The position numbers and the translations under genes were made by a program. A stretch of DNA of 64,000 nucleotides from Escherichia coli (GTDB lineage Bacteria > Pseudomonadota > Gammaproteobacteria > Enterobacterales > Enterobacteriaceae): NCBI RefSeq assembly GCF_003334405.1, contig NZ_QOWM01000012.1. The stretch is one strand, 5' to 3'. The number at the start of each line of letters is the position of its first letter. Positions within the stretch are counted from its first letter, which is position 1. The notes under the pieces are model-generated. The model did not search any database. It saw only the letters and a list, made by a program, of their open reading frames with translations, and was not told where the DNA came from. Positions 43,339-64,000 of the stretch are shown one piece after another.

Positions 43339-43342
43339 ACAA

Positions 43343-44765: not shown

Positions 44766-44942
44766 ACTCAATAATGGCTGGTCATGCTTTAATGTTGCAG
44801 TGTATCCCGGATCGTTTCTGAACAAACTTAATAAACCATTATTATAAAATTAACATATATATTTCAGTTAATTATGTAAAAACATCCGTTTATTAAATTA
44901 CTCATGGATTGTCGCTGTTGCTCATTTGAGCTACAATTCAAG

Positions 44943-44958
44943 CTGAATAAATATACAG
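44943..44958 (+). promoter_or_regulatory. LexA-box-like operator upstream of dinJ
   Basis: CTGAATAAATATACAG (CTG-N10-CAG) 17 nt upstream of dinJ ATG. Confidence 0.55.
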
Positions 44959-44974
44959 CACAGGAGATACCCCA

Positions 44975-45235: not shown

Positions 45236-45237
45236 AT

Positions 45238-45516
45238 ATGATTCAAAGGGATATTGAATACTCGGGACAATATTCAAAGGATGTAAAACTTGCACAAAAG
45301 CGTCATAAGGATATGAATAAATTGAAATATCTTATGACGCTTCTTATCAATAATACTTTACCGCTTCCAGCTGTTTATAAAGACCACCCGCTGCAAGGTT
45401 CATGGAAAGGTTATCGCGATGCTCATGTCGAACCGGACTGGATCCTGATTTACAAACTTACCGATAAACTTTTACGATTTGAGAGAACTGGAACTCACGC
45501 GGCGCTCTTTGGGTAA
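45238..45516 (+). CDS. yafQ: RelE-family mRNA interferase toxin YafQ
   Basis: 92 aa, start 3 nt after dinJ stop. Confidence 0.85.
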   Translation: MIQRDIEYSGQYSKDVKLAQKRHKDMNKLKYLMTLLINNTLPLPAVYKDHPLQGSWKGYRDAHVEPDWILIYKLTDKLLRFERTGTHAALFG

Positions 45517-45671
45517 AGCCCGCTTCCGATGAAATTTGTAAACCCTGCGCCGACAGGCTTGCGTAAAACTCTTTTGGTGATAATGTGAGCCTTCCAAATC
45601 CAGACTATTCCGATTTGGGATCCATTTTGCCGTCCTGGCGTGTGTAACCGTTTTATCAAGGAATAAGCAGT

Positions 45672-46412
45672 ATGCGTAAAATCGCATTAATTCTTGCGAT
45701 GTTGTTGATCCCGTGCGTTTCATTTGCCGGTTTGCTGGGCAGCAGTAGCTCTACCACGCCTGTGAGCAAAGAGTATAAGCAGCAGTTGATGGGATCCCCT
45801 GTCTACATCCAGATCTTCAAGGAAGAACGTACGCTCGATCTCTACGTCAAAATGGGCGAGCAATATCAACTGCTCGACAGCTATAAAATCTGTAAATATT
45901 CCGGCGGCTTAGGGCCAAAACAGCGTCAGGGCGATTTCAAAAGCCCGGAAGGGTTTTATAGCGTCCAGCGTAATCAGTTAAAACCAGACAGCCGTTACTA
46001 CAAAGCGATTAATATTGGTTTCCCCAATGCCTATGACCGTGCGCATGGTTATGAAGGGAAATACCTGATGATCCACGGCGATTGTGTTTCCATCGGCTGC
46101 TACGCAATGACCAATCAGGGTATTGATGAGATATTCCAGTTCGTTACTGGTGCGCTGGTGTTTGGTCAGCCGAGCGTGCAAGTGAGTATTTACCCGTTCC
46201 GCATGACCGACGCCAATATGAAGCGCCATAAATATTCCAACTTTAAGGACTTCTGGGAGCAACTGAAGCCGGGTTACGACTACTTTGAGCAAACCCGTAA
46301 GCCACCAACCGTTTCTGTGGTCAATGGTCGTTACGTGGTCAGCAAGCCGTTAAGCCACGAAGTTGTGCAGCCACAACTGGCATCAAACTACACGCTCCCC
46401 GAGGCAAAATAA
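45672..46412 (+). CDS. yafK: L,D-transpeptidase-fold periplasmic protein YafK
   Basis: 246 aa with signal peptide; YkuD-type motif [17 protein letters not shown]. Confidence 0.85.
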
Positions 46413-47150
46413 GCGCCATTCGCCTGGCATAATCTTTTGCCAGGTTTCATTGCCCGTCAGCGGCTGTGTTGCAATCACCGTGACCACATCATTCGGTGTG
46501 GTCTGCGAGCTGAAGTCGATTTCCACATCCTGATCCAGCAACGTTGCCACGCCAAACGGCGCGCGGCGGGTGATCCAGTGTAAATTAGTCGAGCAATACG
46601 CCATTACATAGCGCCCGTCCGAAAGCAGCATGTTGAAAACGCCCTTCTGCCGCAGTTCATCCGCCAGTGAGGCGATATATTTAAATACCGCCGCCATGTT
46701 GCCCGGTGTGCGCGGGTAACGCTGCGTTAATTTATGCAGGAGCCAGCAGAAGGCTTTTTCGCTGTCGGTTTCGCCTACCGGGCGGAAGTTGCCGGTTTCC
46801 AGTGATTTGTAGCCCGTCAGTTGTCCGTTATGGGCATAAGTCCAGTTACGCCCCCATAACTCGCGGGTAAATGGGTGAGTATTTTCCAGCGCCACCTCGC
46901 CCCGATTAGCCTGGCGAATATGAGCCACCACCGAACAGGATTTTATCGGGTAGTCCTGGACAAGTTTGGCGATGGGGGAATTAAAGCTGGGTTGTGGATC
47001 TTTAAATGTGCGACAGCCTTTACCTTCGTAAAAGGTAATGCCCCAGCCATCTTTATGTGGCCCGGTTCCACCACCACGCTGTACAAGCCCGGTGAAACTA
47101 AAGCAGATATCGGTAGGGACGTTGGCGCTCATCCCGAGCAATTCGCACAT
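46383..47150 (-). CDS. yafJ: class II (Ntn) glutamine amidotransferase-like protein YafJ
   Basis: Start [10 protein letters not shown] with Cys2 nucleophile typical of Ntn amidotransferases; RBS GGAGG. Confidence 0.85.
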
Positions 47151-47214
47151 GGGTAACCTCCACAACAGCGGGAGCGCATGGCCCCCGGCGAAGATTGATT
47201 TAAGAATTTTCAGG

Positions 47215-47345
47215 TCGGATGCGGCGTGAACGCATTATTCGGCCTACGGTTCGCGTACAGATTTGTAGGCATGATAAGACGCGTCAGCGTCGCATCAGGC
47301 ATCAGCGCACAAATGCCGGATGCGGCGTAAACGTCTTATCCGGCC
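47215..47345. repeat. BIME (REP cluster)
   Basis: tcggatgcggcgtgaacgcattattcggcctac ... gtaggcatgataagacgcgtcagcgtcgcatcaggcatc ... gccggatgcggcgtaaacgtcttatccggcctac. Confidence 0.7.
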
Positions 47346-47355
47346 TACGCCAGAC

Positions 47356-47934
47356 TTACTTAACCATCTCTTTTTCAATCAACTGGATCAGGATATGGAT
47401 CACTTTAATGTGAATCTCCTGAATGCGGTCGGCATAACCAAAGTGCGGTACGCGAATTTCGATATCCGCCGTGCCAGCCATTTTGCCGCCGTCTTTACCG
47501 GTCAGGGTGATCACTTTCATTCCCTTCTCACGCGCCGCTGCGATCGCTTTGATCACGTTTGCAGAGTTACCGGAGGTGGAGATCCCCAGCAGTACATCGC
47601 CTTCGCGACCTACCGCTTCAACGTAGCGGGAGAAAATATCATTGAAACCGAAATCATTACCGACGCAGGAAATATGACTAACGTCAGAAATAGCAATCGC
47701 CGGGTAGCCCGGACGGTTTTCACGGTAGCGACCGGTCAACTCTTCGGCAAAGTGCATAGCGTCGCAATGGGAACCGCCGTTGCCGCAGGAAAGCACTTTG
47801 CCACCGGCTTTAAAGCTGTCTGCTAACAGGACCGCCGCGCGCTGAATGGCGTGAATATTGGCGTCATCTTTTAAAAAGTTAGCCAGCGTTTCCGCCGCTT
47901 CGTTCAGTTCGTTACGAATAAGATCCTGGTACAT
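47356..47934 (-). CDS. gmhA: phosphoheptose isomerase
   Basis: 192 aa from [17 protein letters not shown]; SIS domain. Confidence 0.95.
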
Positions 47935-48173
47935 GAGGATATCCTTCAGCATAAATGTAATAGACAAAATGCAGTGTACCGGATACCGCCAAAAGCGAGA
48001 AGTACGGGCAGGTGCTATGACCAGGACTTTTTGACCTGAAGTGCGGATAAAAACAGCAACAATGTGAGCTTTGTTGTAATTATATTGTAAACATATTGCT
48101 AAATGTTTTTACATCCACTACAACCATATCATCACAAGTGGTCAGACCTCCTACAAGTAAGGGGCTTTTCGTT

Positions 48174-50618
48174 ATGATGATTTTGAGTATTCTCGCTACG
48201 GTTGTCCTGCTCGGCGCGTTGTTCTATCACCGCGTGAGCTTATTTATCAGCAGTCTGATTTTGCTCGCCTGGACAGCCGCCCTCGGCGTTGCTGGTCTGT
48301 GGTCGGCGTGGGTACTGGTGCCTCTGGCCATTATCCTCGTGCCATTTAACTTTGCGCCTATGCGTAAGTCGATGATTTCCGCGCCGGTATTTCGCGGTTT
48401 CCGTAAGGTGATGCCGCCGATGTCGCGCACTGAGAAAGAAGCGATTGATGCGGGCACCACCTGGTGGGAGGGCGACTTGTTCCAGGGCAAGCCGGACTGG
48501 AAAAAGCTGCATAACTATCCGCAGCCGCGTCTGACCGCCGAAGAGCAAGCGTTTCTCGACGGCCCGGTAGAAGAAGCCTGCCGGATGGCGAATGATTTCC
48601 AGATCACCCATGAGCTGGCGGATCTGCCGCCGGAGTTGTGGGCGTACCTTAAAGAGCATCGTTTCTTCGCGATGATCATCAAAAAAGAGTACGGCGGGCT
48701 GGAGTTCTCGGCTTATGCCCAGTCTCGCGTGCTGCAAAAACTCTCCGGCGTGAGCGGGATCCTGGCGATTACCGTCGGCGTGCCAAACTCATTAGGCCCG
48801 GGCGAACTGTTGCAACATTACGGCACTGACGAGCAGAAAGATCACTATCTGCCGCGTCTGGCGCGTGGTCAGGAGATCCCCTGCTTTGCACTGACCAGCC
48901 CGGAAGCGGGTTCCGATGCGGGCGCGATTCCGGACACCGGGATTGTCTGCATGGGCGAATGGCAGGGCCAGCAGGTGCTGGGGATGCGTCTGACCTGGAA
49001 CAAACGCTACATTACGCTGGCACCGATTGCGACCGTGCTTGGGCTGGCGTTTAAACTCTCCGACCCGGAAAAATTACTCGGCGGTGCAGAAGATTTAGGC
49101 ATTACCTGTGCGCTGATCCCAACCACCACGCCGGGCGTGGAAATTGGTCGTCGCCACTTCCCGCTGAACGTACCGTTCCAGAACGGACCGACGCGCGGTA
49201 AAGATGTCTTCGTGCCGATCGATTACATCATCGGCGGGCCGAAAATGGCCGGGCAAGGCTGGCGGATGCTGGTGGAGTGCCTCTCGGTAGGCCGCGGCAT
49301 CACCCTGCCTTCCAACTCAACCGGCGGCGTGAAATCGGTAGCGCTGGCAACCGGCGCGTATGCTCACATTCGCCGTCAGTTCAAAATCTCTATTGGTAAG
49401 ATGGAAGGGATTGAAGAGCCGCTGGCGCGTATTGCCGGTAATGCCTACGTGATGGATGCTGCGGCATCGCTGATTACCTACGGCATTATGCTCGGCGAAA
49501 AACCTGCCGTGCTGTCGGCTATCGTTAAGTATCACTGTACCCACCGCGGGCAGCAGTCGATTATTGATGCGATGGATATTACCGGCGGTAAAGGCATTAT
49601 GCTCGGGCAAAGCAACTTCCTGGCGCGTGCTTACCAGGGCGCACCGATTGCCATCACCGTTGAAGGGGCTAACATTCTGACCCGCAGCATGATGATCTTC
49701 GGACAAGGAGCGATTCGTTGCCATCCGTACGTGCTGGAAGAGATGGAAGCGGCGAAGAACAATGACGTCAACGCGTTCGATAAACTGTTGTTCAAACATA
49801 TCGGTCACGTCGGTAGCAACAAAGTTCGCAGCTTCTGGCTGGGCCTGACGCGCGGTTTAACCAGCAGCACGCCAACCGGCGATGCCACTAAACGCTACTA
49901 TCAGCACCTGAACCGCCTGAGCGCCAACCTCGCCCTGCTTTCTGATGTCTCGATGGCAGTGCTGGGCGGCAGCCTGAAACGTCGCGAGCGCATCTCGGCC
50001 CGTCTGGGGGATATTTTAAGCCAGCTCTACCTCGCCTCTGCCGTGCTGAAGCGTTATGACGACGAAGGCCGTAATGAAGCCGACCTGCCGCTGGTGCACT
50101 GGGGCGTACAAGATGCGCTGTATCAGGCTGAACAGGCGATGGATGATTTACTGCAAAACTTCCCGAACCGCGTGGTTGCCGGGCTGCTGAATGTGGTGAT
50201 CTTCCCGACCGGACGTCATTATCTGGCACCTTCTGACAAGCTGGATCATAAAGTGGCGAAGATTTTACAAGTGCCGAACGCCACCCGTTCCCGCATTGGT
50301 CGCGGTCAGTACCTGACGCCGAGCGAGCATAATCCGGTTGGCTTGCTGGAAGAGGCGCTGGTGGATGTGATTGCCGCCGACCCAATTCATCAGCGGATCT
50401 GTAAAGAGCTGGGTAAAAACCTGCCGTTTACCCGTCTGGATGAACTGGCGCACAACGCGCTGGTGAAGGGGCTGATTGATAAAGATGAAGCCGCTATTCT
50501 GGTGAAAGCTGAAGAAAGCCGTCTGCGCAGTATTAACGTTGATGACTTTGATCCGGAAGAGCTGGCGACGAAGCCGGTAAAGTTGCCGGAGAAAGTGCGG
50601 AAAGTTGAAGCCGCGTAA
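48174..50618 (+). CDS. fadE: acyl-CoA dehydrogenase FadE
   Basis: 814 aa from [14 protein letters not shown]; N-terminal TM helices plus acyl-CoA dehydrogenase domains. Confidence 0.95.
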
Positions 50619-50626
50619 ATGAATAA

Positions 50627-50652
50627 CGGAGCCGAAAGGCTCCGTTTCTTTA
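50627..50652. terminator. bidirectional intrinsic terminator between fadE and ivy
   Basis: cggagccgaaaggctccg hairpin followed by TTTCTTT. Confidence 0.6.
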
Positions 50653-50660
50653 TCCGCTAA

Positions 50661-51134
50661 TTATTTAAAATTAAAGCCATCCGGATGGTTTTCCAGGCTG
50701 CCGGTCAACGCCGCGAACAACACCGTTTTACCATCAATCGAAAGCGCATCGTTCACATTCAGCCAGGTGAGTTTCTCTTGCGACGTTTTCTCATCAATAG
50801 TCGAGAACAGCCCCGTCATCTGATTAGATTTCTCGGACCACATCACAGCGATACGTTGCGAGCCACAGTCATGCGGTTTGCACGCGCTCATCACCTGATA
50901 CGTCTCATCTCCCAACGTTACGGTTTGTGCGGGAGTATAAGTACCGCCTTTCATCACCCAGGCAGGCAGCTTATGCCCTTGTACCATCTGATTAAATGCA
51001 GCTTTGGTGGTTTCGCCCTTTGCAAGGCTGCTAATGGTTAAATCATCCTGCGCCATTGCACTGGTGGCGATGACCAGAGCGGCGACTGTCGTTATTGCCT
51101 TAAACATCATTCCTCCCGAGCTTATCCTGCCCAT
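50661..51134 (-). CDS. ivy: inhibitor of vertebrate lysozyme
   Basis: 157 aa with signal peptide and CKPHDCG loop motif. Confidence 0.9.
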   Translation of the reverse strand: MGRISSGGMMFKAITTVAALVIATSAMAQDDLTISSLAKGETTKAAFNQMVQGHKLPAWVMKGGTYTPAQTVTLGDETYQVMSACKPHDCGSQRIAVMWSEKSNQMTGLFSTIDEKTSQEKLTWLNVNDALSIDGKTVLFAALTGSLENHPDGFNFK

Positions 51135-51287
51135 GTTATTAACCTCCTAAAGCCTGGCGATAACACGATAATTTGCAAATCAGATATTTCCAATATCAGC
51201 ATTTGTTATCAATTTATTCTGCGCTAAGGCAACTGCCTGATAAGGTGTTAAAGTTATAAAACCCTTCGCATAAAGGAGTTGTACACC

Positions 51288-52058
51288 GTGCCTGGTTTGA
51301 AGATTACGCTTTTGCAGCAACCACTGGTGTGGATGGATGGTCCTGCCAACCTGCGTCATTTTGATCGTCAACTGGAAGGTATTACCGGGCGCGATGTGAT
51401 CGTTCTACCGGAGATGTTTACCAGCGGCTTTGCCATGGAAGCGGCAGCTTCGTCGCTAGCACAAGATGACGTAGTGAACTGGATGACAGCTAAGGCGCAG
51501 CAGTGCAATGCGCTGATTGCAGGCAGTGTTGCATTACAAACGGAGTCTGGTTCGGTTAACCGCTTTTTGCTGGTTGAGCCGGGCGGCACGGTACATTTTT
51601 ATGATAAGCGTCATCTGTTCCGCATGGCAGATGAGCATCTACATTATAAAGCGGGCAATGCGCGAGTGATTGTGGAATGGCGCGGCTGGCGTATTTTGCC
51701 GCTGGTGTGCTACGACTTACGTTTTCCTGTGTGGTCGCGCAATCTCAACGATTATGACCTCGCCCTGTACGTCGCCAACTGGCCTGCTCCGCGCTCTCTG
51801 CACTGGCAGGCATTGCTGACGGCCCGCGCGATTGAGAATCAGGCGTATGTGGCGGGATGCAATCGCGTCGGCAGCGATGGCAACGGCTGCCATTATCGCG
51901 GTGACAGCCGGGTGATTAATCCGCAAGGAGAGATTATCGCTACTGCCGACGCGCATCAGGCAACGCGCATTGATGCGGAGCTGTCGATGGCAGCATTGCG
52001 GGAATATAGAGAAAAGTTTCCGGCATGGCAGGATGCGGATGAGTTTAGGTTGTGGTGA
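51288..52058 (+). CDS. yafV: nitrilase-superfamily omega-amidase YafV
   Basis: 256 aa from GTG (MPGLKITLLQQPLVW), RBS AAGGAG; carbon-nitrogen hydrolase fold (E...K...C triad context, CYDLRFP). Confidence 0.85.
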   Translation: MPGLKITLLQQPLVWMDGPANLRHFDRQLEGITGRDVIVLPEMFTSGFAMEAAASSLAQDDVVNWMTAKAQQCNALIAGSVALQTESGSVNRFLLVEPGGTVHFYDKRHLFRMADEHLHYKAGNARVIVEWRGWRILPLVCYDLRFPVWSRNLNDYDLALYVANWPAPRSLHWQALLTARAIENQAYVAGCNRVGSDGNGCHYRGDSRVINPQGEIIATADAHQATRIDAELSMAALREYREKFPAWQDADEFRLW

Positions 52059-52098
52059 GTGGGGGTTGTGTTTAAGGACGGGGAGAGTCGGGGTATTA

Positions 52099-53235
52099 CT
52101 ACGAAAGCCCGCTCCCCGCAAGGACTGACGCCAGGTAGTTTCTGTCCATGGCTGCTTTTCGCATCTTACGTCTTAACCCTGCCTTGAATACCTTCTCATT
52201 CGTCAAAATATTAATAGCAATGTGCCGTATCCCTGAAAATAATTCTGCTGCGTTTCCTCTTCTTATTTTGTAGTCGTCTTCATTCATTACCACGTCCAGA
52301 CGCCTGTGCAGCTTATTCTCCACGTGCCAGTGGTTTCGGATTGCTGTGGCGAACTTCTCTGCGGTTAAATCAGCAGAACTGATATAATATCTGACCGTCA
52401 TTTCTGGCTCTTTCTTTTGTTCTGCTATTATTGACCGAAAGGAGACTGCCACGCATAATTTCTTCAGCCCTTTCCATTCAAACGTGAAATCAATAAGTTC
52501 ATCAGGGACATCGCAAACAATATGAAGACGGATTTCTTCTCTGCCGTGACTCTTTTCACTCATTGCGTAACTGTCATGCGCTGGATTATTTAATTCTTTC
52601 AGCGGAAATTTTTCCTCAAAGGCTTTATTTAGCCGCCCCTGGTTTCCTTTTACCGCGAATAAATAATCACCTCCCTGTTTTTGTATCTTCTCTGCAATAT
52701 CTTTCTGGCAACCCATCGCATCAGTTGTGATGATTTTTCCTTTAATATCCAGCATGTTAAGAAGTTCTGGGATAGCTGTAATCTCATTAGATTTCTCATC
52801 CGTCCTGATCTGTCCGATGACCAGACTGTGCATTGTTGAGAACGCACTAATGACATGAATCGCTCCCTTGCGGCGACTCTTGTCATAAGAATGCCGGAGT
52901 GTTTTTCCATCAATTGCGATGACGTCTTTATCATCTGAAGTATGGCAATCTCGCATCCAGTTAATAAAGCACTCGTGAAATTTTGAAGGACTGATACAGG
53001 ATACAACTCTGGCGATGGTATCGTGAACAGGAATACCATTTTCAAAATCACCATATTGTTTTAAAAAATCGAGATGTGTTTCCCCAAAATCCTCTATATC
53101 TTCCCAGCCTTCTGCACCAGAAATAACGGCACAAATAGTCAACAGTAGAATATCCGATAATTTATGTTCCACTTTCCAGGCTTGTCTGTAATCGGGGATA
53201 ATAGAAATATGTTCCATCAATTTTTTAAGTTCCAT
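52099..53235 (-). mobile_element. ISAs1-family (H-repeat) transposase, full-length ORF
   Basis: 378-aa [21 protein letters not shown]...; H-repeat-associated protein family typical next to Rhs elements; corresponds positionally to K-12 pseudogene yafF. Confidence 0.8.
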
Positions 53236-53333
53236 TTTGTTCTCCTTAATTATGTAAGGAGTATTTGATCATGTATAAGCAATAAAAAACAGCTTCAGGT
53301 AATGAGGAATATCTCAATTTTTAAACATAAAAT

Positions 53334-53632
53334 GCGAATTATTTAGTACAAAAAATCAGCGTTACGTGATCTTTCCCTGCCCCTGCGCTCACTACCATGG
53401 CTCTTTACCACAGCAGCCGGGGTTGTTTGGGACCGACTTCCGACAGCAGATCCCGGTGGGCCTGCCACCATCTCTTCACAAGCTTATGCTTATTACATGC
53501 AAAACGTCCCGTTTTGCATCTTTGTGCCTACGGCACACCGGTGATCTTTCCCTGATGAGGGATATATTAACTATTGAACATTAGCGCGAATTATTTAGTG
53601 CAAAAAATCAGCATCACGTGATGCTTTTCCTG
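53334..53632. repeat. pair of ~45-bp direct repeats flanking a ~200-bp GC-rich segment
   Basis: gcgaattatttagtRcaaaaaatcagcRtYacgtgatSttttcctgc at 53334-53379 and 53586-53632; core gtgatctttccctg also at 53541-53554. Confidence 0.4.
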
Positions 53633-53665
53633 CTATTAATAACCTCCTCTATTTAACTATATTTT

Positions 53666-54058
53666 TCATTGATGCAATTCGTAGATTTGAAGAAGTTCAA
53701 CTGCCACATTTTTATTTTTACTATCGCAATTTTTATACCATACCCATGCTTCCGTATTTTTTACTTTTTTTAAATCATCCATAATAAAATCCCCACCAAA
53801 AACAGTAAAATACAATGTTTCCTCATTAAAAATAAAACTCACTGCCCCCCCCTCTTTTATTTTAATTTCCGCTTCATTTGTGTTCAAATCAACTTTTTTA
53901 ATTACTCCATGTAAGTTGGGTTTTGATAGTTTTTCTACGCCACCATCAGGAGCGGGTAATATACATCGTTTAAGAACTTTAGCATTTGCACATCCAATAA
54001 CCCAAATTAGAATGCACACTCCCATGTTAATCGCATTAACGTGTCTTAAAACGTTCAT
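53666..54058 (-). CDS. candidate immunity lipoprotein for the Rhs C-terminal toxin
   Basis: 130-aa AT-rich ORF immediately downstream of rhs tip; N-terminal signal sequence with lipobox-like VIGC; start codon uncertain. Confidence 0.45.
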
Positions 54059-55478
54059 ATCTAATTCTCTCTCCAGGATGCGAATACATCCAACTTGTCA
54101 CTTTCTTACACAACTCATCTACATCTTCATTCTGTGCACGGGTACATCCCATAGTTGGTTTCCAGCCTTGTCGAGGAGCATAAGGATCGCGCAACGATGA
54201 TCCCCCACCATGTAGCCATCTTGCTCTAGTATCTGTAGTATAGATCTTCGTTGTGCCATATGCTGCCGATATTCCTGATTCATTTGTCTCACAACCAACG
54301 ACTTCACCTGTATATGGATCACCAGCACCACGTTGAGAACGACGATCAATTCTATTGCTACTATCAAAAGTCATTGAATCACCTGTTTCAGGATCATAAT
54401 AAATAGTCACTCCTCCAGTCATATCAGTAAGAACAAGAGGAGTTTCAGCACCTGCCCGGTCTGGAGCGGGAGGCCCATATACACTTATAACTCGTTCTAA
54501 CCCCAGTGGATCAGTGTAACGTATTGGTACCAGTGGATACGTGTATAGATTTATTCCCCCCTTCAACCCTATCGGATCCTGGGTGATATACCGCCCCTGC
54601 AACGGATCGTAGTACCGGTGACGGTTGTAATACAGTCCCGACTCCTCATCATACTGCTGCCCCGGCAGACGGAGTGACTGTTGAAGGTGCTGCGCACTGG
54701 TTTCGCCCAGCAGGTTTCCCCATTCGTCATACTCCCCGCACCACGCCGTTTCCCCTTCCGGGCTGATAAGCGCCTGCGGCAGTCCCCGGTGGTCACAGTG
54801 GTAAAGATGAAGTTTCCTCTCCGGGATGTATTCCGCCTCCATCTGCGCGGCCATCTGTTCCGCCGTCAGCCCGCACTGCGCAAGCCATGCCTCACTCTCC
54901 GCACTCACCGCTCCCGCGCGCAGTTCCCGCTCCAGCCTCCCCAGCATCACCGCCAGCTCCGCCGGGAGCGTCACACCCGTGTCCTCCTGCAACACCTCCG
55001 CCAGGCTCCGGTGCCGCGCCTTCGCCTGTTCGCCATTCTCTGTTTCGATTCTGATGAGCGGCGTGAAGCTCCCCGGCTGGTATACCGTCTGGATACGCGT
55101 GGTGCCGGTCTGTACCGTCGTCAGCCTGTCACCGTCCCACCCGTACCATGTCACCTCCGGTTTACGCGACAGCGACATCCACCCCGTCAGGTCACGCTCC
55201 CGCCGCCATACCCGTTTTCCCGTCCGGCGGCCCAGCGGGTCATAGAGGTACCGGCTCTCCACCTGTGGTTCGCCGTGCTGTATCCGCGTGTAGAACACCA
55301 GGCGGTGCTGGCTGTCGTAGTGGTAGTGGTGGGTCCGCTCGTCGTGCATCCGTATCACCCCTTCCGGGATGCGGTCCGTCTTCTCCGCCAGCCTGCCGTA
55401 TTCATCGTGGCGGTAGACATAGTGCGCATCTTCCGCGATGCGGTTACCCGGCGTTTTCCCCGATGCTGGTTGAGTGGC
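54036..55478 (-). CDS. rhs: Rhs protein C-terminal fragment (core repeats + DPLGL boundary + L,D-transpeptidase-like toxin domain)
   Basis: YD/Rhs repeats ([20 protein letters not shown]), conserved ...[26 protein letters not shown]...DPLGL core end, then 153-aa tip with LHGG...[15 protein letters not shown]; frame opens only at 55478, so N-terminal ~1000 aa absent. Confidence 0.7.
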
Positions 55479-57958
55479 TTAAAGAGGGCTGGCTGCTGGC
55501 GTCGGCTGAGATGCAGCACAGCGAACTGCGCGGCGGCGTGTTGCTGCTGGCCCTGCTGCATTCGCCGCTGCGTTATATACCGCCTGCTGCCGCCCGGCTG
55601 TTGACCGGCATTAACCGTGACCGTCTGCAACAGGACTTTGTGCAGTGGACACAGGAGTCGGCGGAATCAGTCGTGCCGGATGCAGACGGTAAAGGCGCAG
55701 GCACAATGACGGACGCCTCTGACACCCTGCTTGCCCGCTATGCCAAAAACATGACCGCAGACGCCCGTAACGGCAGGCTTGACCCGGTACTGTGCCGCGA
55801 CCACGAAATCGACCTGATGATCGACATTCTCTGCCGCCGCCGTAAAAACAACCCGGTGGTGGTGGGCGAAGCGGGCGTGGGCAAAAGCGCACTGATTGAA
55901 GGGCTGGCGCTGCGCATCGTGGCAGGCCAGGTGCCGGACAAGCTGAAAAACACCGATATCATGACCCTTGACTTGGGCGCATTGCAGGCCGGGGCGTCGG
56001 TGAAGGGTGAATTCGAAAAACGTTTCAAAGGGCTGATGGCGGAGGTCATTTCCTCCCCGGTGCCGGTCATTCTGTTTATCGACGAAGCACATACCCTGAT
56101 TGGCGCGGGCAACCAGCAGGGCGGGCTGGATATCTCCAACCTGCTCAAACCGGCGCTGGCGCGCGGCGAGCTGAAAACCATCGCCGCCACCACCTGGAGC
56201 GAGTACAAAAAATACTTCGAAAAAGATGCCGCCCTGTCGCGCCGCTTCCAGTTGGTGAAGGTCAGCGAACCCAACGCTGCCGAAGCCACCATTATTCTGC
56301 GCGGTCTGTCGGCGGTCTATGAACAGTCTCACGGCGTGCTGATTGATGATGACGCCTTGCAGGCCGCTGCGACATTAAGCGAGCGTTATCTCTCCGGGCG
56401 TCAGTTACCGGACAAAGCGATTGATGTGCTGGATACCGCCTGCGCCCGTGTGGCCATCAACCTGTCGTCGCCGCCGAAGCAAATCTCGGCGCTGACCACT
56501 CTGAGCCACCAGCAGGAGGCGGAAATTCGCCAGCTTGAGCGCGAGCTTCGCATCGGACTGCGTACCGACACATCACGGATGACAGAGGTGCTGGTGCAGT
56601 ATGATGAAACGCTGACGGCGCTGGATGAACTGGAAGCGGCCTGGCACCAGCAGCAGACGCTGGTCCGGGAGATTATCGCGCTGCGCCAGCAGTTACTGGG
56701 CGTGGCAGAGGACGATGCGGCGCCGTTGCCGGACGCAGATACCGTGGAGGATACGCAGCCAGAGTCAGAGTCAGAACAGGATAATACCGGTGCCGTACCG
56801 GCTGATGAGGCCGACAGAGAACAACCGGAAGAGACCGCTGAAACAGTTTCCCCGGTACAGCGGCTGGCCCAGCTCACTGCCGAACTGGACGCCCTGCATA
56901 ACGACCGGTTGCTGGTCTCCCCGCACGTCGATAAAAAACAGATTGCGGCGGTGATTGCCGAATGGACCGGCGTGCCGCTCAACCGCCTGTCGCAGAATGA
57001 AATGTCGGTCATCACCGACCTGACGAAATGGCTGGGTGACACCATCAAAGGCCAGGACCTGGCGATTGCCAGCCTGCATAAGCATCTACTGACCGCACGC
57101 GCCGACCTGCGTCGTCCGGGACGCCCGCTCGGTGCGTTCCTGCTGGCTGGCCCCAGCGGTGTGGGTAAAACCGAAACCGTCCTGCAACTGGCAGAGCTGC
57201 TCTACGGCGGTCGCCAGTACCTGACCACCATCAATATGTCCGAATTCCAGGAGAAACACACCGTCTCGCGGCTGATTGGTTCGCCTCCGGGCTACGTTGG
57301 CTACGGTGAAGGCGGCGTACTGACCGAAGCGATTCGTCAGAAACCCTACTCGGTAGTACTGCTCGATGAAGTGGAAAAAGCGCACCCGGATGTGCTCAAC
57401 CTGTTCTACCAGGCGTTCGATAAGGGCGAAATGGCAGACGGTGAAGGCCGCCTGATTGACTGCAAAAATATCGTCTTCTTCCTGACGTCCAACCTCGGCT
57501 ACCAGGTAATAGTCGAGCATGCCGATGACCCGGAAACCATGCAGGAAGTACTGTATCCGGTGCTGGCCGACTTCTTCAAACCTGCCCTGCTGGCGCGTAT
57601 GGAAGTGGTGCCGTATCTGCCGCTGTCGAAAGAGACGCTCGCCACCATTATCGCCGGAAAACTGGCCCGTCTGGATAACGTGCTGCGCAGTCGCTTTGGT
57701 GCAGAAGTGGTCATTGAACCGGAAGTGACGGACGAAATCATGAGCCGCGTCACCCGCGCGGAAAACGGCGCGAGGATGCTGGAATCGGTCATCGATGGCG
57801 ACATGCTACCGCCGCTCTCGCTGCTGCTGTTGCAGAAAATGGCGGCTAACACGGCGATTGCCCGGATTCGGTTGTCGGCAGTGGACGGCGCATTTACGGC
57901 AGACGTGGAAGATGCTCAGAACGACGAGTCCGTCACAAAGGATGAAACGGTTTTATGA
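55463..57958 (+). CDS. clpV: ClpV-like AAA+ ATPase (TssH), 5-prime end abutting rhs fragment; N-domain short or truncated
   Basis: Two AAA+ modules (GEAGVGKSA; GPSGVGKTE); N-terminal segment [10 protein letters not shown]...; only ~85 aa precede the linker ([19 protein letters not shown]) versus ~150 expected; no RBS or intergenic space. Confidence 0.7.
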
Positions 57959-58698
57959 GCAGGTTGCGCGTTTTCCGGCAGACAGGATGGTTTATCGCGG
58001 GCCTGATGACGGGCTTACCCGCCACTGCCGCGCCCGCAGAAGCATCGTCAATGGCCGGTGTGGCGGTCGCCGTCGCCACCACGACCCCGCCGGATGCGAC
58101 AGCCACGTTACAGGCCATACAGTCCTGTCGGCGGGAGTCCGCGGCGCTGGAGCGGCTTGACTGCTATGACCGCCTGCTGGCACCGCTGTCCCCGTCAGGG
58201 TTTGACGGGGCGCTGGTCAAAGCCGGTTTTGTGGGCGAGGCCTGGACCCGCGCCACAGAGCAGGAAAAACGCCGCGAGGGCAACACCACAGAACTGCTGG
58301 TGACGCAGGTGCCGGGGGAGCGCCCGACGGTGGTGATAACCACCCCGGCTATCGGTCATGTTCCGCCACGCCCGGTGCTGATGTTCAGTTGCGTGGACAA
58401 TATCACCCGGATGCAGGTGGCGCTGATGCACCCTCTGGATGTCCATGATATCGCCGTCACTCTGAATGCCGACAACCGGGCATTGCGCAGCCACTGGTTT
58501 GTGCGCGAGAACGGCACCCTGCTGGAGTCCAGCCGGGGGTTATCCGGGATTGATGAAATTAAGCAACTGTTCGGCGCAAAAACGCTGACGGTGGATACCA
58601 GGGACGACGTATCGGGCCTTATGTGGAACAGACCTATCTGCAACTGCTGGAGCAACGTTACCTGCCCTCGCTGTTTAACGGGCTGGTCAAAGCGATGA
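57955..58698 (+). CDS. secreted protein, possibly T6SS-associated (VasI-like); 3-prime end runs into tssM fragment
   Basis: Signal peptide [30 protein letters not shown]; ATGA overlap with clpV stop; assignment by position and composition only. Confidence 0.35.
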   Translation: MSRLRVFRQTGWFIAGLMTGLPATAAPAEASSMAGVAVAVATTTPPDATATLQAIQSCRRESAALERLDCYDRLLAPLSPSGFDGALVKAGFVGEAWTRATEQEKRREGNTTELLVTQVPGERPTVVITTPAIGHVPPRPVLMFSCVDNITRMQVALMHPLDVHDIAVTLNADNRALRSHWFVRENGTLLESSRGLSGIDEIKQLFGAKTLTVDTRDDVSGLMWNRPICNCWSNVTCPRCLTGWSKR

Positions 58699-60521
58699 AC
58701 GCCGCGCCGCCGGAGAGTGAAGAAAAACTCGCGGTGCTGCGCGTAATGCGAATGCTGGAGGACAAAAGCGGACGTAACAATGAGGTGGTGAAGCAGTATA
58801 TGGCAAAACGCTGGAGCGAAAAATTCCACGGCCAGCGCGATATCCAGGCACAACTGATGTCCCATCTTGACTACGCGCTGGCTCATACTGACTGGCATGC
58901 AGAGCGTCAGGCGGGCGACGGTGACGCCATCAGCCGCTGGACGCCATATGACAAGCCCGTGGTATCAGCACAGAAAGAACTGAGCAAACTGCCTGTCTAC
59001 CAGCGGGTTTACCAGAGCCTGAAAACGCGGGCGCTGGGCGTTCTTCCTGCCGACCTCAATCTGCGTGACCAGGTAGGGCCAACCTTTGACCAGGTGTTTA
59101 CATCTGCCGATGACAACAAACTGGTTGTTCCACAGTTTCTTACCCGTTACGGCCTGCAAAGCTATTTTGTAAAACAGCGCGATGAACTGGTTGAACTGAC
59201 GGCGATGGATTCCTGGGTACTTAACCTTACCCGCAGCGTGAAATACAGTGACGCCGACCGCGCGGAAATCCAGCGCCAGTTGACCGAGCAGTATATCAGC
59301 GACTACACCGCCACCTGGCGGGCCGGGATGGACAATCTGAATATCCGCAATTTTGAGTCCATCGGACAACTGACCGGGGCGCTGGAGCAGGTTATCAGCG
59401 GCGACCAGCCTTTGCAGCGGGCGCTGACCGTCCTGCGTGACAACACACAGCCAGGCGTCTTTTCTGAAAAACTCTCTGCCAAAGAACGGGAGGAAGCCCT
59501 GGCAGAGCCGGATTACCAGTTACTCACCCGCCTCGGGCATGAATTCGCCCCGGAAAACAGTACCCTGGCAGTACAGAAAGACAAAGAAAGCACGATGCAG
59601 GCCGTGTATCAGCAACTCACCGAGTTGCACCGCTACCTGCTGGCAATCCAGAACGCGCCTGTACCAGGGAAATCGGCGCTGAAAGCCGTGCAGTTACGGC
59701 TTGATCAGAACAGCAGCGATCCGATATTCGCCACCCGCCAGATGGCAAAAACGCTGCCTGCTCCGCTCAACCGCTGGGTTGGCAGACTGACTGACCAGGC
59801 CTGGCATGTGGTGATGGTGGAGGCTGTTCATTATATGGAAGTGGACTGGCGCGACAGCGTGGTGAAACCGTTTAACGAGCAACTGGCAAATAACTATCCG
59901 TTTAATCCGCGTTCTGCACAGGATGCCTCACTGGATGCCTTCGAACGCTTCTTTAAACCGGATGGCATACTGGATACCTTCTACCAGCAGAACCTGAAGC
60001 TGTTTATCGATAATGACCTGAGTCTGGAGGATGGCGATAACAACGTCATTATTCGCGAAGATATTATTGCGCAACTGGAAACTGCGCAGAAAATCCGTGA
60101 CATCTTCTTCAGCAAACAGAACGGTCTGGGAACATCCTTTGCCGTGGAAACGGTATCGCTTTCAGGCAATAAACGCCGCAGTGTACTGAACCTTGACGGT
60201 CAGTTAGTCGATTACAGCCAGGGCCGTAACTATACCGCCCATCTGGTCTGGCCTAACAACATGCGCGAAGGCAACGAAAGTAAGCTGACGCTCATCGGCA
60301 CCAGCGGCAACGCGCCGCGCAGTATCAGCTTCAGCGGGCCGTGGGCGCAGTTCCGCCTGTTCGGGGCCGGACAACTGACCGGAGTACAGGATGGCAACTT
60401 TACCGTGCGCTTTAGCGTGGACGGTGGCGCGATGACCTACCGTGTGCATACCGACACGGAAGATAACCCGTTCAGCGGTGGGTTGTTCAGCCAGTTTGGT
60501 CTGTCAGACACACTGTACTGA
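58623..60521 (+). pseudogene. tssM: TssM (IcmF) C-terminal fragment, lacks N-terminal TM/NTPase region
   Basis: 632-aa ORF resembling the periplasmic IcmF-related and C-terminal domains (…FERFFKPDGILDTFYQQNL…, …FRLFGAGQLTG…); frame opens at ~58563 with GTG start only. Confidence 0.5.
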
Positions 60522-60531
60522 GGAGGCAGGG

Positions 60532-61884
60532 ATGAATAGTAACGTACTGACACAAACTATCGTTACCGGCAGTGACCCGCGCGGGCTGCCGGAATTCAGC
60601 GCCATCCGCGAGGAAATAAACAAAGCCAGCCACCCGTCACAGCCTGAGCTGAACTGGAAACTGGTGGAGTCGCTGGCGCTGGCGATTTTTAAAGCCAACG
60701 GTGTGGATTTACACACCGCCACCTACTATACGCTTGCCCGGACACGGACACAGGGACTGGCGGGATTCTGCGAAGGTGCGGAACTGCTGGCGGCAATGGT
60801 AAGCCACGACTGGGATAAGTTCTGGCCGCAGGGCGGCCCGGCGCGTACTGAAATGCTGGACTGGTTTAACTCCCGAACCGGCAATATTCTGCGTCAGCAA
60901 ATCTCCTTTGCGGAATCCGACCTACCACTGATCTACCGCACAGAGCGGGCATTGCAGCTTATCTGCGATAAGCTCCAGCAGGTGGAACTGAAGCGCGTTC
61001 CGCGCGTGGAGAATCTGCTCTATTTTATGCAGAACACGCGTAAACGGCTTGAACCCCAGCTGAAGAGTAACACTGAGAACGCCGCACAGACCACGGTCAG
61101 AACGCTGATTTATGCCCCGGAAACACAGGCATCTTCCACACCAGAAGCGGTAGTGCCTCCCCTGCCCGGCCTGCCTGAGATGAAAGTGGAAGTGCGCAGT
61201 CTGACAGAGAATCCCCCACAGGCCAGTGTGATAAAGCAAGGCAGTACGGTAAGAGGGTTTATCGCAGGGATCGCCTGTTCAGTGGCTGTCGCCTCAGCAT
61301 TGTGGTGGTGGCAGGTCTATCCGGTGCAGCAGCAACTGTTACAGGTTAACGACACCGCTCAGGGCGCAGCAACGGTGTGGATGGCCTCACCTGAACTCGA
61401 AAACTATGAGCGCAGGCTGCAACAACTTCTTGATACCTCCCCGGTACAGCCGCTGGAAACCGGGATGCAGATGATGCGTGTTGCCGACAGTCGCTGGCCG
61501 GAAAGCCTGCAACAGCAACAGGCCTCGACACAATGGAATGAGGCACTCAAAACCCGCGCACAGAGTAGCCCGCAGTTGCGTGGCTGGTTGCAGACCCGCC
61601 AGGACTTACATGCTTTTGCAGATCTAGTGATGCAGCGCGAGAAAGAGGGACTAACCCTTTCCTATATCAAAAATGTCATCTGGCAGGCGGAGCGGGGACT
61701 GGGGCAGGAAACACCCGTTGAGTCTCTGTTGACGCAGTACCATGATGCCCGTGCGCAGAAGCAGAATACAGATGCGCTGGAAAAACAAATTAATGAGCGA
61801 CTCGAAGGTGTGTTAAGCCGCTGGCTGCTGCTGAAGAATAACGTCATGCCAGAGGCGGCAACCGGTACCACGGCCGAAAAATAA
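60532..61884 (+). CDS. TssA-like (ImpA N-domain) protein with C-proximal TM helix (VasL/TagA-like)
   Basis: RBS GAGGAGG then ATG; N-terminal ...LPEFSAIREEINK...NWKLVESLALAIFKANGVDLHTATYYTLARTRTQGLAGFCEGAELLAAM resembles ImpA_N; TM segment GFIAGIACSVAVASALWWW. Confidence 0.55.
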   Translation: MNSNVLTQTIVTGSDPRGLPEFSAIREEINKASHPSQPELNWKLVESLALAIFKANGVDLHTATYYTLARTRTQGLAGFCEGAELLAAMVSHDWDKFWPQGGPARTEMLDWFNSRTGNILRQQISFAESDLPLIYRTERALQLICDKLQQVELKRVPRVENLLYFMQNTRKRLEPQLKSNTENAAQTTVRTLIYAPETQASSTPEAVVPPLPGLPEMKVEVRSLTENPPQASVIKQGSTVRGFIAGIACSVAVASALWWWQVYPVQQQLLQVNDTAQGAATVWMASPELENYERRLQQLLDTSPVQPLETGMQMMRVADSRWPESLQQQQASTQWNEALKTRAQSSPQLRGWLQTRQDLHAFADLVMQREKEGLTLSYIKNVIWQAERGLGQETPVESLLTQYHDARAQKQNTDALEKQINERLEGVLSRWLLLKNNVMPEAATGTTAEK

Positions 61885-61907
61885 TTATTTAATTAAAGGA
61901 GATTATC

Positions 61908-62390
61908 ATGGCAAATATAAGTTATTTATCTTTGAGTGGAGAGACACAAGGGCTAATTTCAGCAGGTTGCTCAACGCTTGATTCTGTCGGAAACAAAGCG
62001 CAGCCAGAACATAAAGATCAGATCATGGTTTATGCGTTAATGCATTCCATCTCAAGAAGTCAAAATGTCAATCATCATGAATTAATTATCACCAAACCGG
62101 TTGATAAATCCTCACCATTGCTGGCAAAAGCACTTAGTGACAATGAAAAAATGGCAATATGTGAATTTATACTCTACCGAACCAGTAAAGCGGGTATTTA
62201 CCAGCCTTATTATAAAATAAATCTGTCAAAAGCCCGAATATCAAGTATTGATTTTGTCACACCGCATGCTGTCCTGGAAAAAGAACTGGAACCACAGGAG
62301 AGAATTGCCTTTATTTATGAAGATATTTCCTGGGAGCATACGTTAGCCGGTACGAATGCAATGAGTAAATGGCAGGATCGTGTACAGTAA
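61908..62390 (+). CDS. hcp: Hcp (TssD) type VI secretion tube protein
   Basis: 160 aa; alignable to Hcp blocks: ITKPVDKSSPLLAKALSDNEKMAICEF, YYKINLSKARISSIDF, ERIAFIYEDISWEH; RBS AAGGAG. Confidence 0.85.
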   Translation: MANISYLSLSGETQGLISAGCSTLDSVGNKAQPEHKDQIMVYALMHSISRSQNVNHHELIITKPVDKSSPLLAKALSDNEKMAICEFILYRTSKAGIYQPYYKINLSKARISSIDFVTPHAVLEKELEPQERIAFIYEDISWEHTLAGTNAMSKWQDRVQ

Positions 62391-62433
62391 CTTACTGTAA
62401 TAACATAATAAATTACTATTGCGGAGAGATAAA

Positions 62434-63348
62434 ATGGCTGGTTTAAGGAATAACAACAACACACAGAATGCACAGTGGGCTGATTATGTGGGTGACATTC
62501 TTCGGGGGGCTCAGCCGATAAACCAGCTAGTACCTCAGCACCCTTATCTTAACGACGTCCCACTCATTGATGAGTTAAGGCATCAGAACACTCATCATGT
62601 TATTCCCTTGACACTTGATGTTGCAAAAAAAATACTCAGCCCAATAACATCATTTGATTACATTCATTTTATCACTACACATCCTTCAGGTATAAAAGAT
62701 ACACTCGCCTGGTTAGTTAACGCGGGTAAATTAATGACTGAGTTTGATGACAATGGGAAAATTATATTTAACCTTAATGCCTTAAAGTATACAAAAGCAA
62801 GTTACTTTGAAATACTTGGAGAGAAATATATAAAAATCACAACATCCAGCCCCTGGCTTTTAGAAAAGCTCGGTAAATATATTTTCTCTTCACGAGCGCC
62901 TCAAGTTCTGGAACTCGCTATTGGCTGGCGAGGAGCTTTATCTGAATCAATAAAAGGAGTTAAGTTCTGTATCTGGTTTTCAGTAGCCTGGAGAACCATA
63001 GAATTTATTATGAGTTCAGAGCGAGATCTGGTTAATTTTCTTGGCGATTTTTCAATGGATGTGGCCAAAGCAGTTATAGCCGGTGGTGTTGCAACCGCTA
63101 TTGGAAGTCTGGCTTCTTTTGCCTGTGTTAGCTTTGGCTTTCCAGTAATTCTTGTCGGAGGAGCAATTTTACTGACAGGGATAGTGTGTACAGTTGTTTT
63201 AAATGAAATCGATGCTCAATGCCATTTATCAGAAAAATTAAAATATGCAATTAGAGATGGACTAAAACGGCAACAGGAACTTGATAAATGGAAAAGGGAA
63301 AACATGACTCCATTTATGTATGTTCTTAACACTCCACCCGTGATATGA
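62434..63348 (+). CDS. candidate Hcp-linked membrane-targeting effector (glycine-zipper C-terminal region), function unknown
   Basis: 304-aa ORF 44 nt after hcp, RBS GGAGAG; C-terminal hydrophobic segments AVIAGGVATAIGSLASFACVSFGFPVILVGGAILLTGIV with small-xxx-small spacing; AT-rich. Confidence 0.4.
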   Translation: MAGLRNNNNTQNAQWADYVGDILRGAQPINQLVPQHPYLNDVPLIDELRHQNTHHVIPLTLDVAKKILSPITSFDYIHFITTHPSGIKDTLAWLVNAGKLMTEFDDNGKIIFNLNALKYTKASYFEILGEKYIKITTSSPWLLEKLGKYIFSSRAPQVLELAIGWRGALSESIKGVKFCIWFSVAWRTIEFIMSSERDLVNFLGDFSMDVAKAVIAGGVATAIGSLASFACVSFGFPVILVGGAILLTGIVCTVVLNEIDAQCHLSEKLKYAIRDGLKRQQELDKWKRENMTPFMYVLNTPPVI

Positions 63349-63357
63349 GGATTAACC

Positions 63358-63837
63358 ATGCGTTTACATGTTAAATTAAAAGAGTTTCTTTCGATGTTTT
63401 TTATGGCCATATTATTTTTCCCTGCATTCAATGCTTCTTTGTTTTTTACCGGAGTTAAACCTCTATATTCAATAATAAAATGCTCCACGGAAATATTTTA
63501 TGATTGGAGAATGTTGATTCTGTGCTTCGGTTTCATGTCGTTTTCCTTTTTAAATATTCATGTAATTTTACTTACGATAATAAAATCATTCTTAATCAAA
63601 AAAACGAAGGTAGTCAATTTCGCCACAGACATAACAATACAGCTAACTCTTATATTTTTACTAATAGCTATCGTAATAGCACCTTTAATAGCTCCTTTTG
63701 TCACAGGATATGTCAATACTAATTATCACCCCTGCGGTAATAATACGGGAATTTTCCCAGGAGCAATCTATATTAAAAATGGCATGAAATGTAATAATGG
63801 ATATATTTCTCGCAAGGAAGATTCAGCAGTTAAATAA
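63358..63837 (+). CDS. candidate cognate immunity protein (polytopic membrane protein)
   Basis: 159-aa ORF 10 nt after previous stop, 3-4 predicted TM helices, very AT-rich. Confidence 0.4.
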   Translation: MRLHVKLKEFLSMFFMAILFFPAFNASLFFTGVKPLYSIIKCSTEIFYDWRMLILCFGFMSFSFLNIHVILLTIIKSFLIKKTKVVNFATDITIQLTLIFLLIAIVIAPLIAPFVTGYVNTNYHPCGNNTGIFPGAIYIKNGMKCNNGYISRKEDSAVK

Positions 63838-64000
63838 TTAAATATTCTAAAACAAACAGTTTTTAACTCCGGATTCCATGTCCTTTCTTGCACTGTCTTT
63901 GTCAAGAAAAATTTCTTATGCAAAGAATTTTGTATTATTGCCGCCAGAAATTCCTGGCGGCAGATATAATTTATTATTGATAGCGGTTAACCAAATCTTT

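What the first reader, a model, noticed from the sequence alone, without database searches (positions are those of the whole stretch)
58560..58700. Second scar: VasI-like ORF runs out of frame into a tssM 3-prime fragment
The frame carrying the TssM-like C-terminal 630 residues opens only at ~58563 and has no ATG, only a GTG at 58623. The preceding secreted-protein ORF continues in another frame to 58698. The TssM N-terminal transmembrane and NTPase region is therefore missing. No tssB, tssC, tssEFG, tssJKL or vgrG are present in the window, so this is a degraded or heavily rearranged T6SS unless the core genes lie beyond 64000.
Basis: partly seen in the sequence, partly recalled or inferred. 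Interest (0 to 1): 0.45.

Follow-up and report, generated by a model that had tools for sequence, protein, structure and literature searches.

The report
Deletion scar in dead T6SS locus
A 3.1-kb deletion fused the end of vasI to the second half of tssM in an E. coli type VI secretion gene cluster that an earlier 16-kb deletion had already disabled, so this is ordinary gene decay with no new function.

Summary
The window is an E. coli chromosome, 99.96-100% identical to K-12 MG1655 in the flanks. It carries the remnant of the type VI secretion cluster next to ykfM-yafT-aspV.

Against an intact locus (strain 720632), window 55445-58599 and 58596-64000 are collinear at 99.9% or better. 3137 bp are missing between them, joined through a 4-bp microhomology (TACC, 58596-58599). 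The deletion removes vasI codons 216-247, all of tssA and tssM codons 1-503, which hold three transmembrane segments and the Walker A motif. It is not a multiple of three.

vasI therefore reads 32 wrong-frame codons to 58698. The tssM frame has only GTG 58623 and ATG 58695 as possible starts.

An earlier roughly 16.3-kb deletion (RHS|tssH, 55445-55452) removed vgrG and tssB to tssL. Thirty complete genomes share that junction, and one of them still has vasI-tssA-tssM intact. No searched collection holds the second junction.

Deletion loss of this locus is already described (Cummins 2023). K-12 has deleted the whole remnant.

Side observation, unexplained: about half of 35 mapped junctions at this locus cross over at a TA dinucleotide, and the same sites recur with different partners.

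The parts
52099..53235 (-). ISAs1-family (H-repeat) transposase gene between yafV and the RHS remnant
   Evidence: NCBIfam NF033564, E 4.7e-122. Same gene in related genomes.
53666..54058 (-). Small ORF downstream of the RHS tip; immunity-type position, function not tested
   Evidence: Annotated as hypothetical protein WP_001101839.1 in BR1220 and S1-CAM-01-C. No NCBIfam hit.
54036..55451 (-). RHS core C-terminal fragment (residues about 944-1414), N-terminus deleted
   Evidence: tblastn RHS 944-1414 at 96.6%. NCBIfam RHS_core profile positions 970-1261 only.
55445..55452 (.). Scar 1: junction of RHS (minus strand) to tssH codon 85. Imperfect 8-bp overlap with crossover at TA. About 16.27 kb deleted (RHS N-terminus, vgrG, hcp, tssB to tssL, first 84 codons of tssH).
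   Evidence: The identical junction is present in 30 of 5426 complete E. coli genomes.
55445..57958 (+). tssH (clpV) remnant, codons 85-921. The mechanical ORF 55148-57958 extends upstream into antisense RHS sequence.
   Evidence: TIGR03345 profile positions 74-851. tblastn 84-921 at 99.6%. Translation.
57955..58599 (+). vasI, native codons 1-215, including the signal-peptide-like N-terminus
   Evidence: Identical to L004 vasI up to ...TLTVDT.
58596..58599 (.). Scar 2: 4-bp microhomology TACC, shared by vasI (L004 16864-16867) and tssM (L004 20001-20004). 3137 bp deleted.
58600..58698 (+). Wrong-frame tail of the chimeric vasI ORF (32 codons plus TGA), reading tssM DNA in the +1 register
   Evidence: 3137 is not a multiple of 3.
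58596..60521 (+). tssM remnant, codons 504-1144 plus stop (periplasmic IcmF-related, helical and C-terminal domains). Lacks TM1-3 and Walker A. Candidate starts: GTG 58623 and ATG 58695.
   Evidence: 641 of 641 residues identical to intact TssM 504-1144. TM segments at residues 1-19, 36-54 and 420-438; Walker A at 113-120. Pfam; TIGR03348.
60532..61884 (+). VasL/ImpA-domain gene (called tssA2 by Cummins et al.), intact
   Evidence: tblastn 450 of 450 residues at 100%. Annotation.
61908..62390 (+). Orphan hcp (tssD2), intact
   Evidence: TIGR03344, E 2.1e-60. 100%.
62434..63348 (+). Hypothetical gene, intact here. Its 3' end survives in K-12 as the pseudogene yafU.
63358..63837 (+). ykfM, the last gene of the island before yafT-aspV

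Best explanation
Window 58596-58599 is the junction of a spontaneous 3137-bp chromosomal deletion. It occurred inside an E. coli aspV-adjacent type VI secretion cluster that was already non-functional. This cluster is the type Cummins et al. call T6SS-2, with rhs and vgrG.

Order of events:
1. A roughly 16.3-kb deletion joined the middle of the RHS gene to tssH codon 85. It removed vgrG, hcp1, tssB, tssC, tssE, tssF, tssG, tagH, tssJ, tssK and tssL. With no selection left on the remaining genes, further loss was free to occur.
2. A second deletion then joined vasI codon 215 to tssM codon 504 through the 4-bp microhomology TACC. It removed the vasI 3' end, all of tssA, and the tssM part encoding the three transmembrane helices and the P-loop NTPase.

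The deletion shifts the frame. vasI ends in 32 nonsense codons. The tssM remnant has no native start and encodes only the normally periplasmic domains, without any export signal or membrane anchor.

Shown: both junctions, their coordinates, the lost gene content, and the order of events (genomes exist with scar 1 alone).

Inferred: the molecular route (short-homology joining after a break, or a template switch), and that nothing here is functional.
For: Collinearity with the intact locus on both sides at 99.9-99.98% identity, with a clean 3137-bp gap and a 4-bp overlap.

The TssM remnant is 641 of 641 residues identical to the intact protein, so the event is recent.

Thirty complete genomes share scar 1. 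LAU-OXA has scar 1 with intact vasI-tssA-tssM. Other scar-1 genomes carry different secondary deletions: BR1220 and ECCTRSRTH03 lose 442 bp in tssA, UMNF18 has a tssH-vasI deletion, and VG48B2 has a tssA-tssM deletion.

About 560 of 3303 genomes with a match to this segment hold it only partly, with many different breakpoints.

No IS, target-site duplication or FRT-type sequence lies at the junction.

No core genes occur elsewhere in the window.

Deletion loss of the same locus between rhsG and tssM is published for ST410-B (PMC10711316).

K-12 MG1655, almost identical in the flanks, has deleted window 52380-62991 entirely.
Against: The exact junction was not found in any other sequence: 5426 complete E. 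coli genomes, GTDB species representatives or JGI metagenome contigs. The allele therefore rests on this one assembly, and no reads are available to confirm it.

Expression of the remnants was not tested.
Confidence: 0.94

Rival explanations
1. Assembly artefact: the 3.1 kb is present in the strain but was dropped during assembly.
For: The junction is unique to this window.
Against: The two flanks share only 4 bp, so there is no repeat for an assembler to collapse. Many independently assembled complete genomes carry analogous deletions in the same segment.
Confidence: 0.03
2. The remnant makes a new product. Either a TssM C-terminal fragment is re-initiated at ATG 58695 through the ATGA stop-start overlap with the chimeric vasI ORF, or a VasI(1-208)-TssM(504-1144) fusion forms by a -1 slip at A-AAA-A (58578-58582), which would carry the periplasmic TssM domains out on the VasI signal peptide.
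For: The ATGA overlap, and the tssM frame being the -1 frame of vasI and open from 58563, are read directly from the sequence. A tssM interrupted by a premature stop is rescued by transcriptional frameshifting in Citrobacter rodentium (title and abstract of PMC4256274, listed).
Against: Both features are by-products of the deletion. The A5 run is native vasI sequence and is much shorter than known slippery tracts (own knowledge). The partners TssJ and TssL are deleted. The operon's upstream part is gone, and no promoter-like site stands out above shuffled controls (3 found, 1.8 expected). No other genome shares the allele, so there is no sign of selection.
Confidence: 0.02
3. A rearranged but working T6SS, with this remnant complemented by core genes encoded elsewhere in the genome.
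For: Hcp, VasL and most of ClpV remain as open reading frames. Some E. coli strains carry more than one T6SS class (PMC12282107).
Against: tssH lacks its first 84 codons, tssM lacks its membrane half, and tssA is absent. A second system would bring its own full gene set and would not need these fragments. The near-identical K-12 lineage has lost the whole remnant.
Confidence: 0.01

Closest known systems
ST410-B/H24 rhsG-tssM 21.0-kb deletion, and the tssD1-tssA2 19.8-kb deletion, of the E. coli T6SS-2 locus (Cummins et al. 2023, PMC10711316)
   Same: Same chromosomal locus and gene set (rhs, vgrG, tssA-M, tssA2/VasL, tssD2/hcp). T6SS lost by deletion with no mobile element at the junction, leaving a tssM 3' fragment followed by tssA2 and tssD2.
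   Different: Here there are two successive deletions (RHS|tssH, then vasI|tssM), not one RHS|tssM event, and tssH' and vasI' survive. An RHS|tssM junction (strain LR-46; its sequence type was not checked) uses the same RHS position as scar 1 here but a different right end.
E. coli K-12 MG1655 yafF / yafU pseudogene junction between yafV and ykfM
   Same: Same lineage (flanks 99.96-100% identical) and same island. K-12 keeps only the ISAs1 remnant (yafF) and the 3' end of the hypothetical gene (yafU).
   Different: K-12 deleted window 52380-62991 in one piece through an AGAAC microhomology, taking both scars with it. The window shows an earlier stage of the same decay.
ISEc12-interrupted tssM of ST131 clade C (EC958)
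   Same: T6SS inactivation through tssM.
   Different: That is an insertion with a 5-bp target duplication that splits an otherwise complete cluster, not a deletion in an already gutted one.
Other secondary deletions in scar-1 genomes (VG48B2, BR1220, ECCTRSRTH03, UMNF18)
   Same: Same ancestral RHS|tssH junction. Short-homology deletions of 0.4-2.1 kb in tssH-vasI-tssA-tssM.
   Different: Different breakpoints in each. None can be derived from the window's allele, or the reverse, by deletion alone.

Membership tests
Functional type VI secretion system (13 core components TssA-TssM) | Presence of sheath (tssB, tssC), baseplate (tssE, tssF, tssG, tssK), membrane complex (tssJ, tssL, tssM), tssA and vgrG | tested here: not met
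   tblastn with the intact locus proteins finds none of tssA, B, C, E, F, G, J, K, L or vgrG in the window. Only TssH 84-921, TssM 504-1144 and Hcp are present.
TssM / IcmF family (TIGR03348) | N-terminal transmembrane helices and cytoplasmic Walker A NTPase domain | tested here: not met
   In the intact orthologue these lie at residues 1-19, 36-54, 420-438 and 113-120. The remnant starts at residue 504. The profile match covers positions 526-1167 only.
TssM / IcmF family (TIGR03348) | Periplasmic IcmF-related, helical and C-terminal (TssJ-binding) domains | tested here: met
   Pfam PF06761 (E 1.1e-62), PF21070 and PF06744 (E 3.5e-25).
VasI (TIGR03360) | Full-length match to the family profile | tested here: inconclusive
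   Score 215 bits against a cut-off of 124, so it is named VasI. The match stops at profile position 164 of 187, and the last 32 residues are wrong-frame tssM sequence.
Short-homology (illegitimate) deletion scar | Both flanks collinear with an intact reference, short shared bases at the junction, no IS or target duplication, and reading frames broken | tested here: met
   3137 bp missing, TACC overlap, frame shifted.
ST410-B type rhsG-tssM deletion allele (Cummins 2023) | RHS joined directly to tssM | tested here: not met
   In the window RHS is joined to tssH (55445-55452), and tssM is joined to vasI.

The most novel reading that the evidence does not exclude
The deletions eroding this T6SS island are not random short-homology events.

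In 35 mapped junctions from 26 genomes, 18 cross over inside a TA dinucleotide that is present in both parents. About 1.5 would be expected for junction tracts of the same lengths.

The TA sits in a weakly palindromic context, C-G-G-N-T-A|Y-C. The same sites are reused with different partners. RHS ...GCGGTTA|TCCGG is joined to five different right ends. The window's own left end at vasI ...GGATA|CC is shared, within 2 bp, with strain Eco_23-3571.

This would imply a sequence-preferring break or excision process behind T6SS loss in E. coli. Candidates are scars of IS-linked excision of the IEE type, or a TA-specific recombinase or nuclease. The window's scar 2 (GGATA|CC x CTGTA|CC) would be one product of that process.
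Probability: 0.3. Interest if true: 0.55.

Novelty: new member of a known kind. Interest (0 to 1): 0.15.

Why it matters
For the finding itself, very little. It is one more private allele in the well-documented decay of the aspV-adjacent T6SS island of E. coli, and it shows an intermediate stage of what K-12 has lost completely.

There is a practical point for annotation. The chimeric vasI ORF is exactly as long as the real gene (247 aa), and tssH' appears as a 936-aa ORF. Both could be mis-called as intact genes.

The side observation on TA-centred, reused breakpoints would matter more if it holds up in a systematic survey. It would then say something about how such islands are dismantled.

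Tried and rejected
- Exact 40-nt junction searches in GTDB representative genomes and JGI metagenome contigs: no match.
- 300-bp junction query against 5426 complete E. coli genomes: no contiguous match. The nearest is Eco_23-3571, with a different right end.
- Promoter and terminator consensus scan of 54800-60600: nothing above shuffled expectation.
- Inverted-repeat search around the ISAs1 element, to define its ends and target: uninformative.
- Literature search for TA-specific deletion junctions in E. coli: nothing relevant. The IEE review gives only a general precedent for IS-linked, IS-free deletions with 2-4-bp microhomology.
- Explanations for the TA motif, considered from my own knowledge and rejected on the sequences:
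  - An EcoRV site (GATATC) is present at only some of the sites.
  - For integron secondary sites (GWTMW, crossover G|WT), the junctions keep the left parent's base at -2.
  - The IS5 target is YTAR, but here the base after TA is a pyrimidine.
  - The gyrase consensus does not fit.
- K-12's own two junctions (Flag-2, and T6SS/RHS) are not TA-class, so the signature is not universal.
- Three of the first breakpoint coincidences came from loci I had picked because their coordinates were close. I therefore re-tested on six genomes chosen without regard to junctions: 3 of 10 junctions were TA-class, against about 0.3 expected.

Full report
**What is at the coordinates**

- A 247-aa ORF runs from 57955 to 58698.
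- A second frame is closed by TAA at 58560-58562 and opens at 58563.
- The first start-type codon in that frame is GTG 58623, and the frame runs to 60521.

NCBIfam names the first ORF VasI and the second TssM. The TssM match covers only profile positions 526-1167 of 1168. Pfam finds the IcmF-related, helical and C-terminal domains, and no N-terminal domain.

**Origin and reference**

megablast places the segment in E. coli chromosomes, in the T6SS island between yafV/RHS and ykfM-yafT-aspV.

Strain 720632 has the full island. Its gene order is RHS, vgrG, hcp, tssB, tssC, tssE, tssF, tssG, tagH, tssJ, tssK, tssL, tssH, vasI, tssA, tssM, VasL, hcp, a hypothetical gene and ykfM.

The window is nearly identical to K-12 MG1655 wherever both have sequence:
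- 99.98% over window 1-5954
- 99.96% over 41407-52379
- 100% over 62992-64000

**The scar**

blastn gives window 55445-58599 = L004 13713-16867, with three substitutions. It gives window 58596-64000 = L004 20001-25405, with one substitution.

The two blocks overlap by TACC (58596-58599). That tetramer occurs in vasI (...GTGGATACC|GGCG) and in tssM (...GACTGTACC|AGGG).

The missing 3137 bp are made up as follows:
- the last 99 bp of vasI
- a 4-bp spacer
- tssA (1413 bp)
- a 108-bp spacer
- the first 1509 bp of tssM
- one copy of the 4-bp TACC microhomology

3137 is not divisible by three. VasI therefore keeps residues 1-215 and then reads 32 wrong-frame codons. By coincidence this restores the native length of 247 aa.

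TssM keeps residues 504-1144, identical at all 641 positions to the intact protein. It loses hydrophobic segments at residues 1-19, 36-54 and 420-438, and the Walker A motif GPAGSGKT at 113-120.

No IS, target duplication or engineered scar lies at the junction.

**Context: the first scar and the order of events**

At 55445-55452 an RHS C-terminal fragment on the minus strand (residues about 944-1414) is joined to tssH codon 85. This deletes about 16.27 kb, covering vgrG through tssL.

tblastn confirms that none of tssA, tssB, tssC, tssE, tssF, tssG, tagH, tssJ, tssK, tssL or vgrG is present anywhere in the window.

The scar-1 junction occurs unchanged in 30 of 5426 complete genomes.
- LAU-OXA has scar 1 with intact vasI-tssA-tssM.
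- BR1220 and ECCTRSRTH03 have lost 442 bp of tssA.
- UMNF18 has lost 1.5 kb across tssH-vasI.
- VG48B2 has lost 2.07 kb across tssA-tssM.

Scar 1 therefore came first, and the lineages then decayed independently.

The window's scar 2 is private. It is absent from the complete genomes, from GTDB representatives and from metagenome contigs.

Across E. coli, 2745 genomes hold at least 80% of vasI-tssA-tssM in one piece. About 560 hold only parts, with many different breakpoints.

K-12 has gone further. It deleted window 52380-62991 through an AGAAC microhomology, leaving the pseudogenes yafF and yafU.

**Comparison with the literature**

Cummins et al. 2023 (PMC10711316) describe this locus as a T6SS-2 type cluster with rhsG, tssA2 and tssD2. 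They show loss by a 21.0-kb rhsG-tssM deletion and a 19.8-kb tssD1-tssA2 deletion in ST410-B, and by an ISEc12 insertion in tssM in ST131-C. The present case is the same kind of event at different breakpoints.

**Function**

Nothing indicates that the remnant works.
- TssH lacks its N-terminal 84 residues.
- TssM lacks its membrane anchor and NTPase.
- Its partners TssJ and TssL are gone.
- The upstream end of the operon is deleted.
- A consensus scan finds no promoter-like site above chance.

Two accidental features are noted as a low-probability rival. First, the chimeric vasI stop TGA (58696-58698) overlaps an in-frame tssM ATG (58695, Met537). Second, the tssM frame is the -1 frame of vasI downstream of an A5 run.

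**Side observation, unexplained**

I mapped 20 alleles on the intact reference L022 and obtained 25 junctions with both parents known.

In 15 of them, the exact crossover tract contains TA. A length-matched random model expects 1.1, and none of 2,000,000 simulations exceeded 9.

The 26 parental sites align to C-G-G-N-T-A|Y-C.

The same sites recur with different partners:
- RHS L022 6357 is joined to vgrG 10149, vgrG 10800, tssB 12954, tssH 22624 (scar 1) and tssM 28975.
- vasI 25775-25777 is the left end in both the window and Eco_23-3571.
- tssA 25916, tssA 26911-26915, vasI 25529, tssM 28972-28977 and tssM 29531-29533 are each used two or three times.

Some of these loci were chosen because their coordinates looked close. 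I therefore tested six further genomes picked without regard to junctions. 3 of 10 new junctions were TA-class against about 0.3 expected, and RHS 6357 appeared with a fifth partner.

K-12's two junctions are not TA-class.

The window's scar 2 (GGATA|CC x CTGTA|CC) is TA-class.

I could not identify a mechanism. IS-linked excision of the IEE type is a precedent for IS-free deletions anchored at a fixed site with 2-4-bp microhomology. No IS was seen at these sites in the genomes inspected.

**Verdict**

This is an ordinary pseudogenising deletion in an already dead T6SS island, representing a new private allele of a known kind, and its interest is low.

Noticed in passing
Locus-wide, in L022 coordinates. 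In the window: 55445-55452 and 58596-58599.: About half of the deletion junctions in this T6SS island cross over at a TA shared by both parents, in the context CGGNTA|YC. That is 18 of 35 junctions against about 1.5 expected. The same breakpoints are reused with different partners: RHS L022 6357 has five partners, and the window's vasI left end is shared within 2 bp with strain Eco_23-3571. The mechanism is unknown.
   Followed up: partly
window 1-5954, 41407-52379 and 62992-64000: The flanks are 99.96-100% identical to E. coli K-12 MG1655. K-12 lacks window 5955-41406 (the Flag-2 lateral flagellar cluster; junction in lafU/lfhA) and window 52380-62991 (ISAs1, RHS and the T6SS remnant; junction yafF/yafU). 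The window is thus a less-deleted relative of the K-12 lineage.
   Followed up: yes
window about 5186-43119: A complete-looking Flag-2 (lateral flagella) gene cluster, lafU to lfhA. The ORFs for the FliA-like sigma factor (6988-7704) and FliI (30478-31815) are open here, whereas the close relative BR1220 has internal stops in both.
   Followed up: partly
window 55148-57958: The tssH remnant appears as a 936-aa ATG-initiated ORF, longer than native TssH (921 aa). Its first roughly 99 codons are antisense RHS sequence upstream of scar 1. This is a trap for gene callers.
   Followed up: partly
window 58695-58698: ATGA overlap: the stop codon of the chimeric vasI ORF overlaps an in-frame ATG of tssM (Met537). 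This is the geometry of translational coupling, created by chance by the deletion.
   Followed up: partly
window 58356-58898, minus strand: A 180-aa antisense ORF spans the deletion junction. It is most likely a spurious ORF in G+C-rich coding DNA.
   Followed up: no
window 43135-43339, 43936-44019 and 17328-17430: Repeated 84-104-bp segments (87-94% alike) flank the rayT (REP-associated tyrosine transposase) gene at 43343-43840, with one more copy inside the Flag-2 cluster. They look like REP/BIME arrays.
   Followed up: no
window about 1811-2540: Fragments of prfH and an RtcB-family gene next to pepD, annotated as pseudogenes in BR1220 and in K-12 (ykfJ/prfH). This is another decayed locus in the same window.
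   Followed up: no
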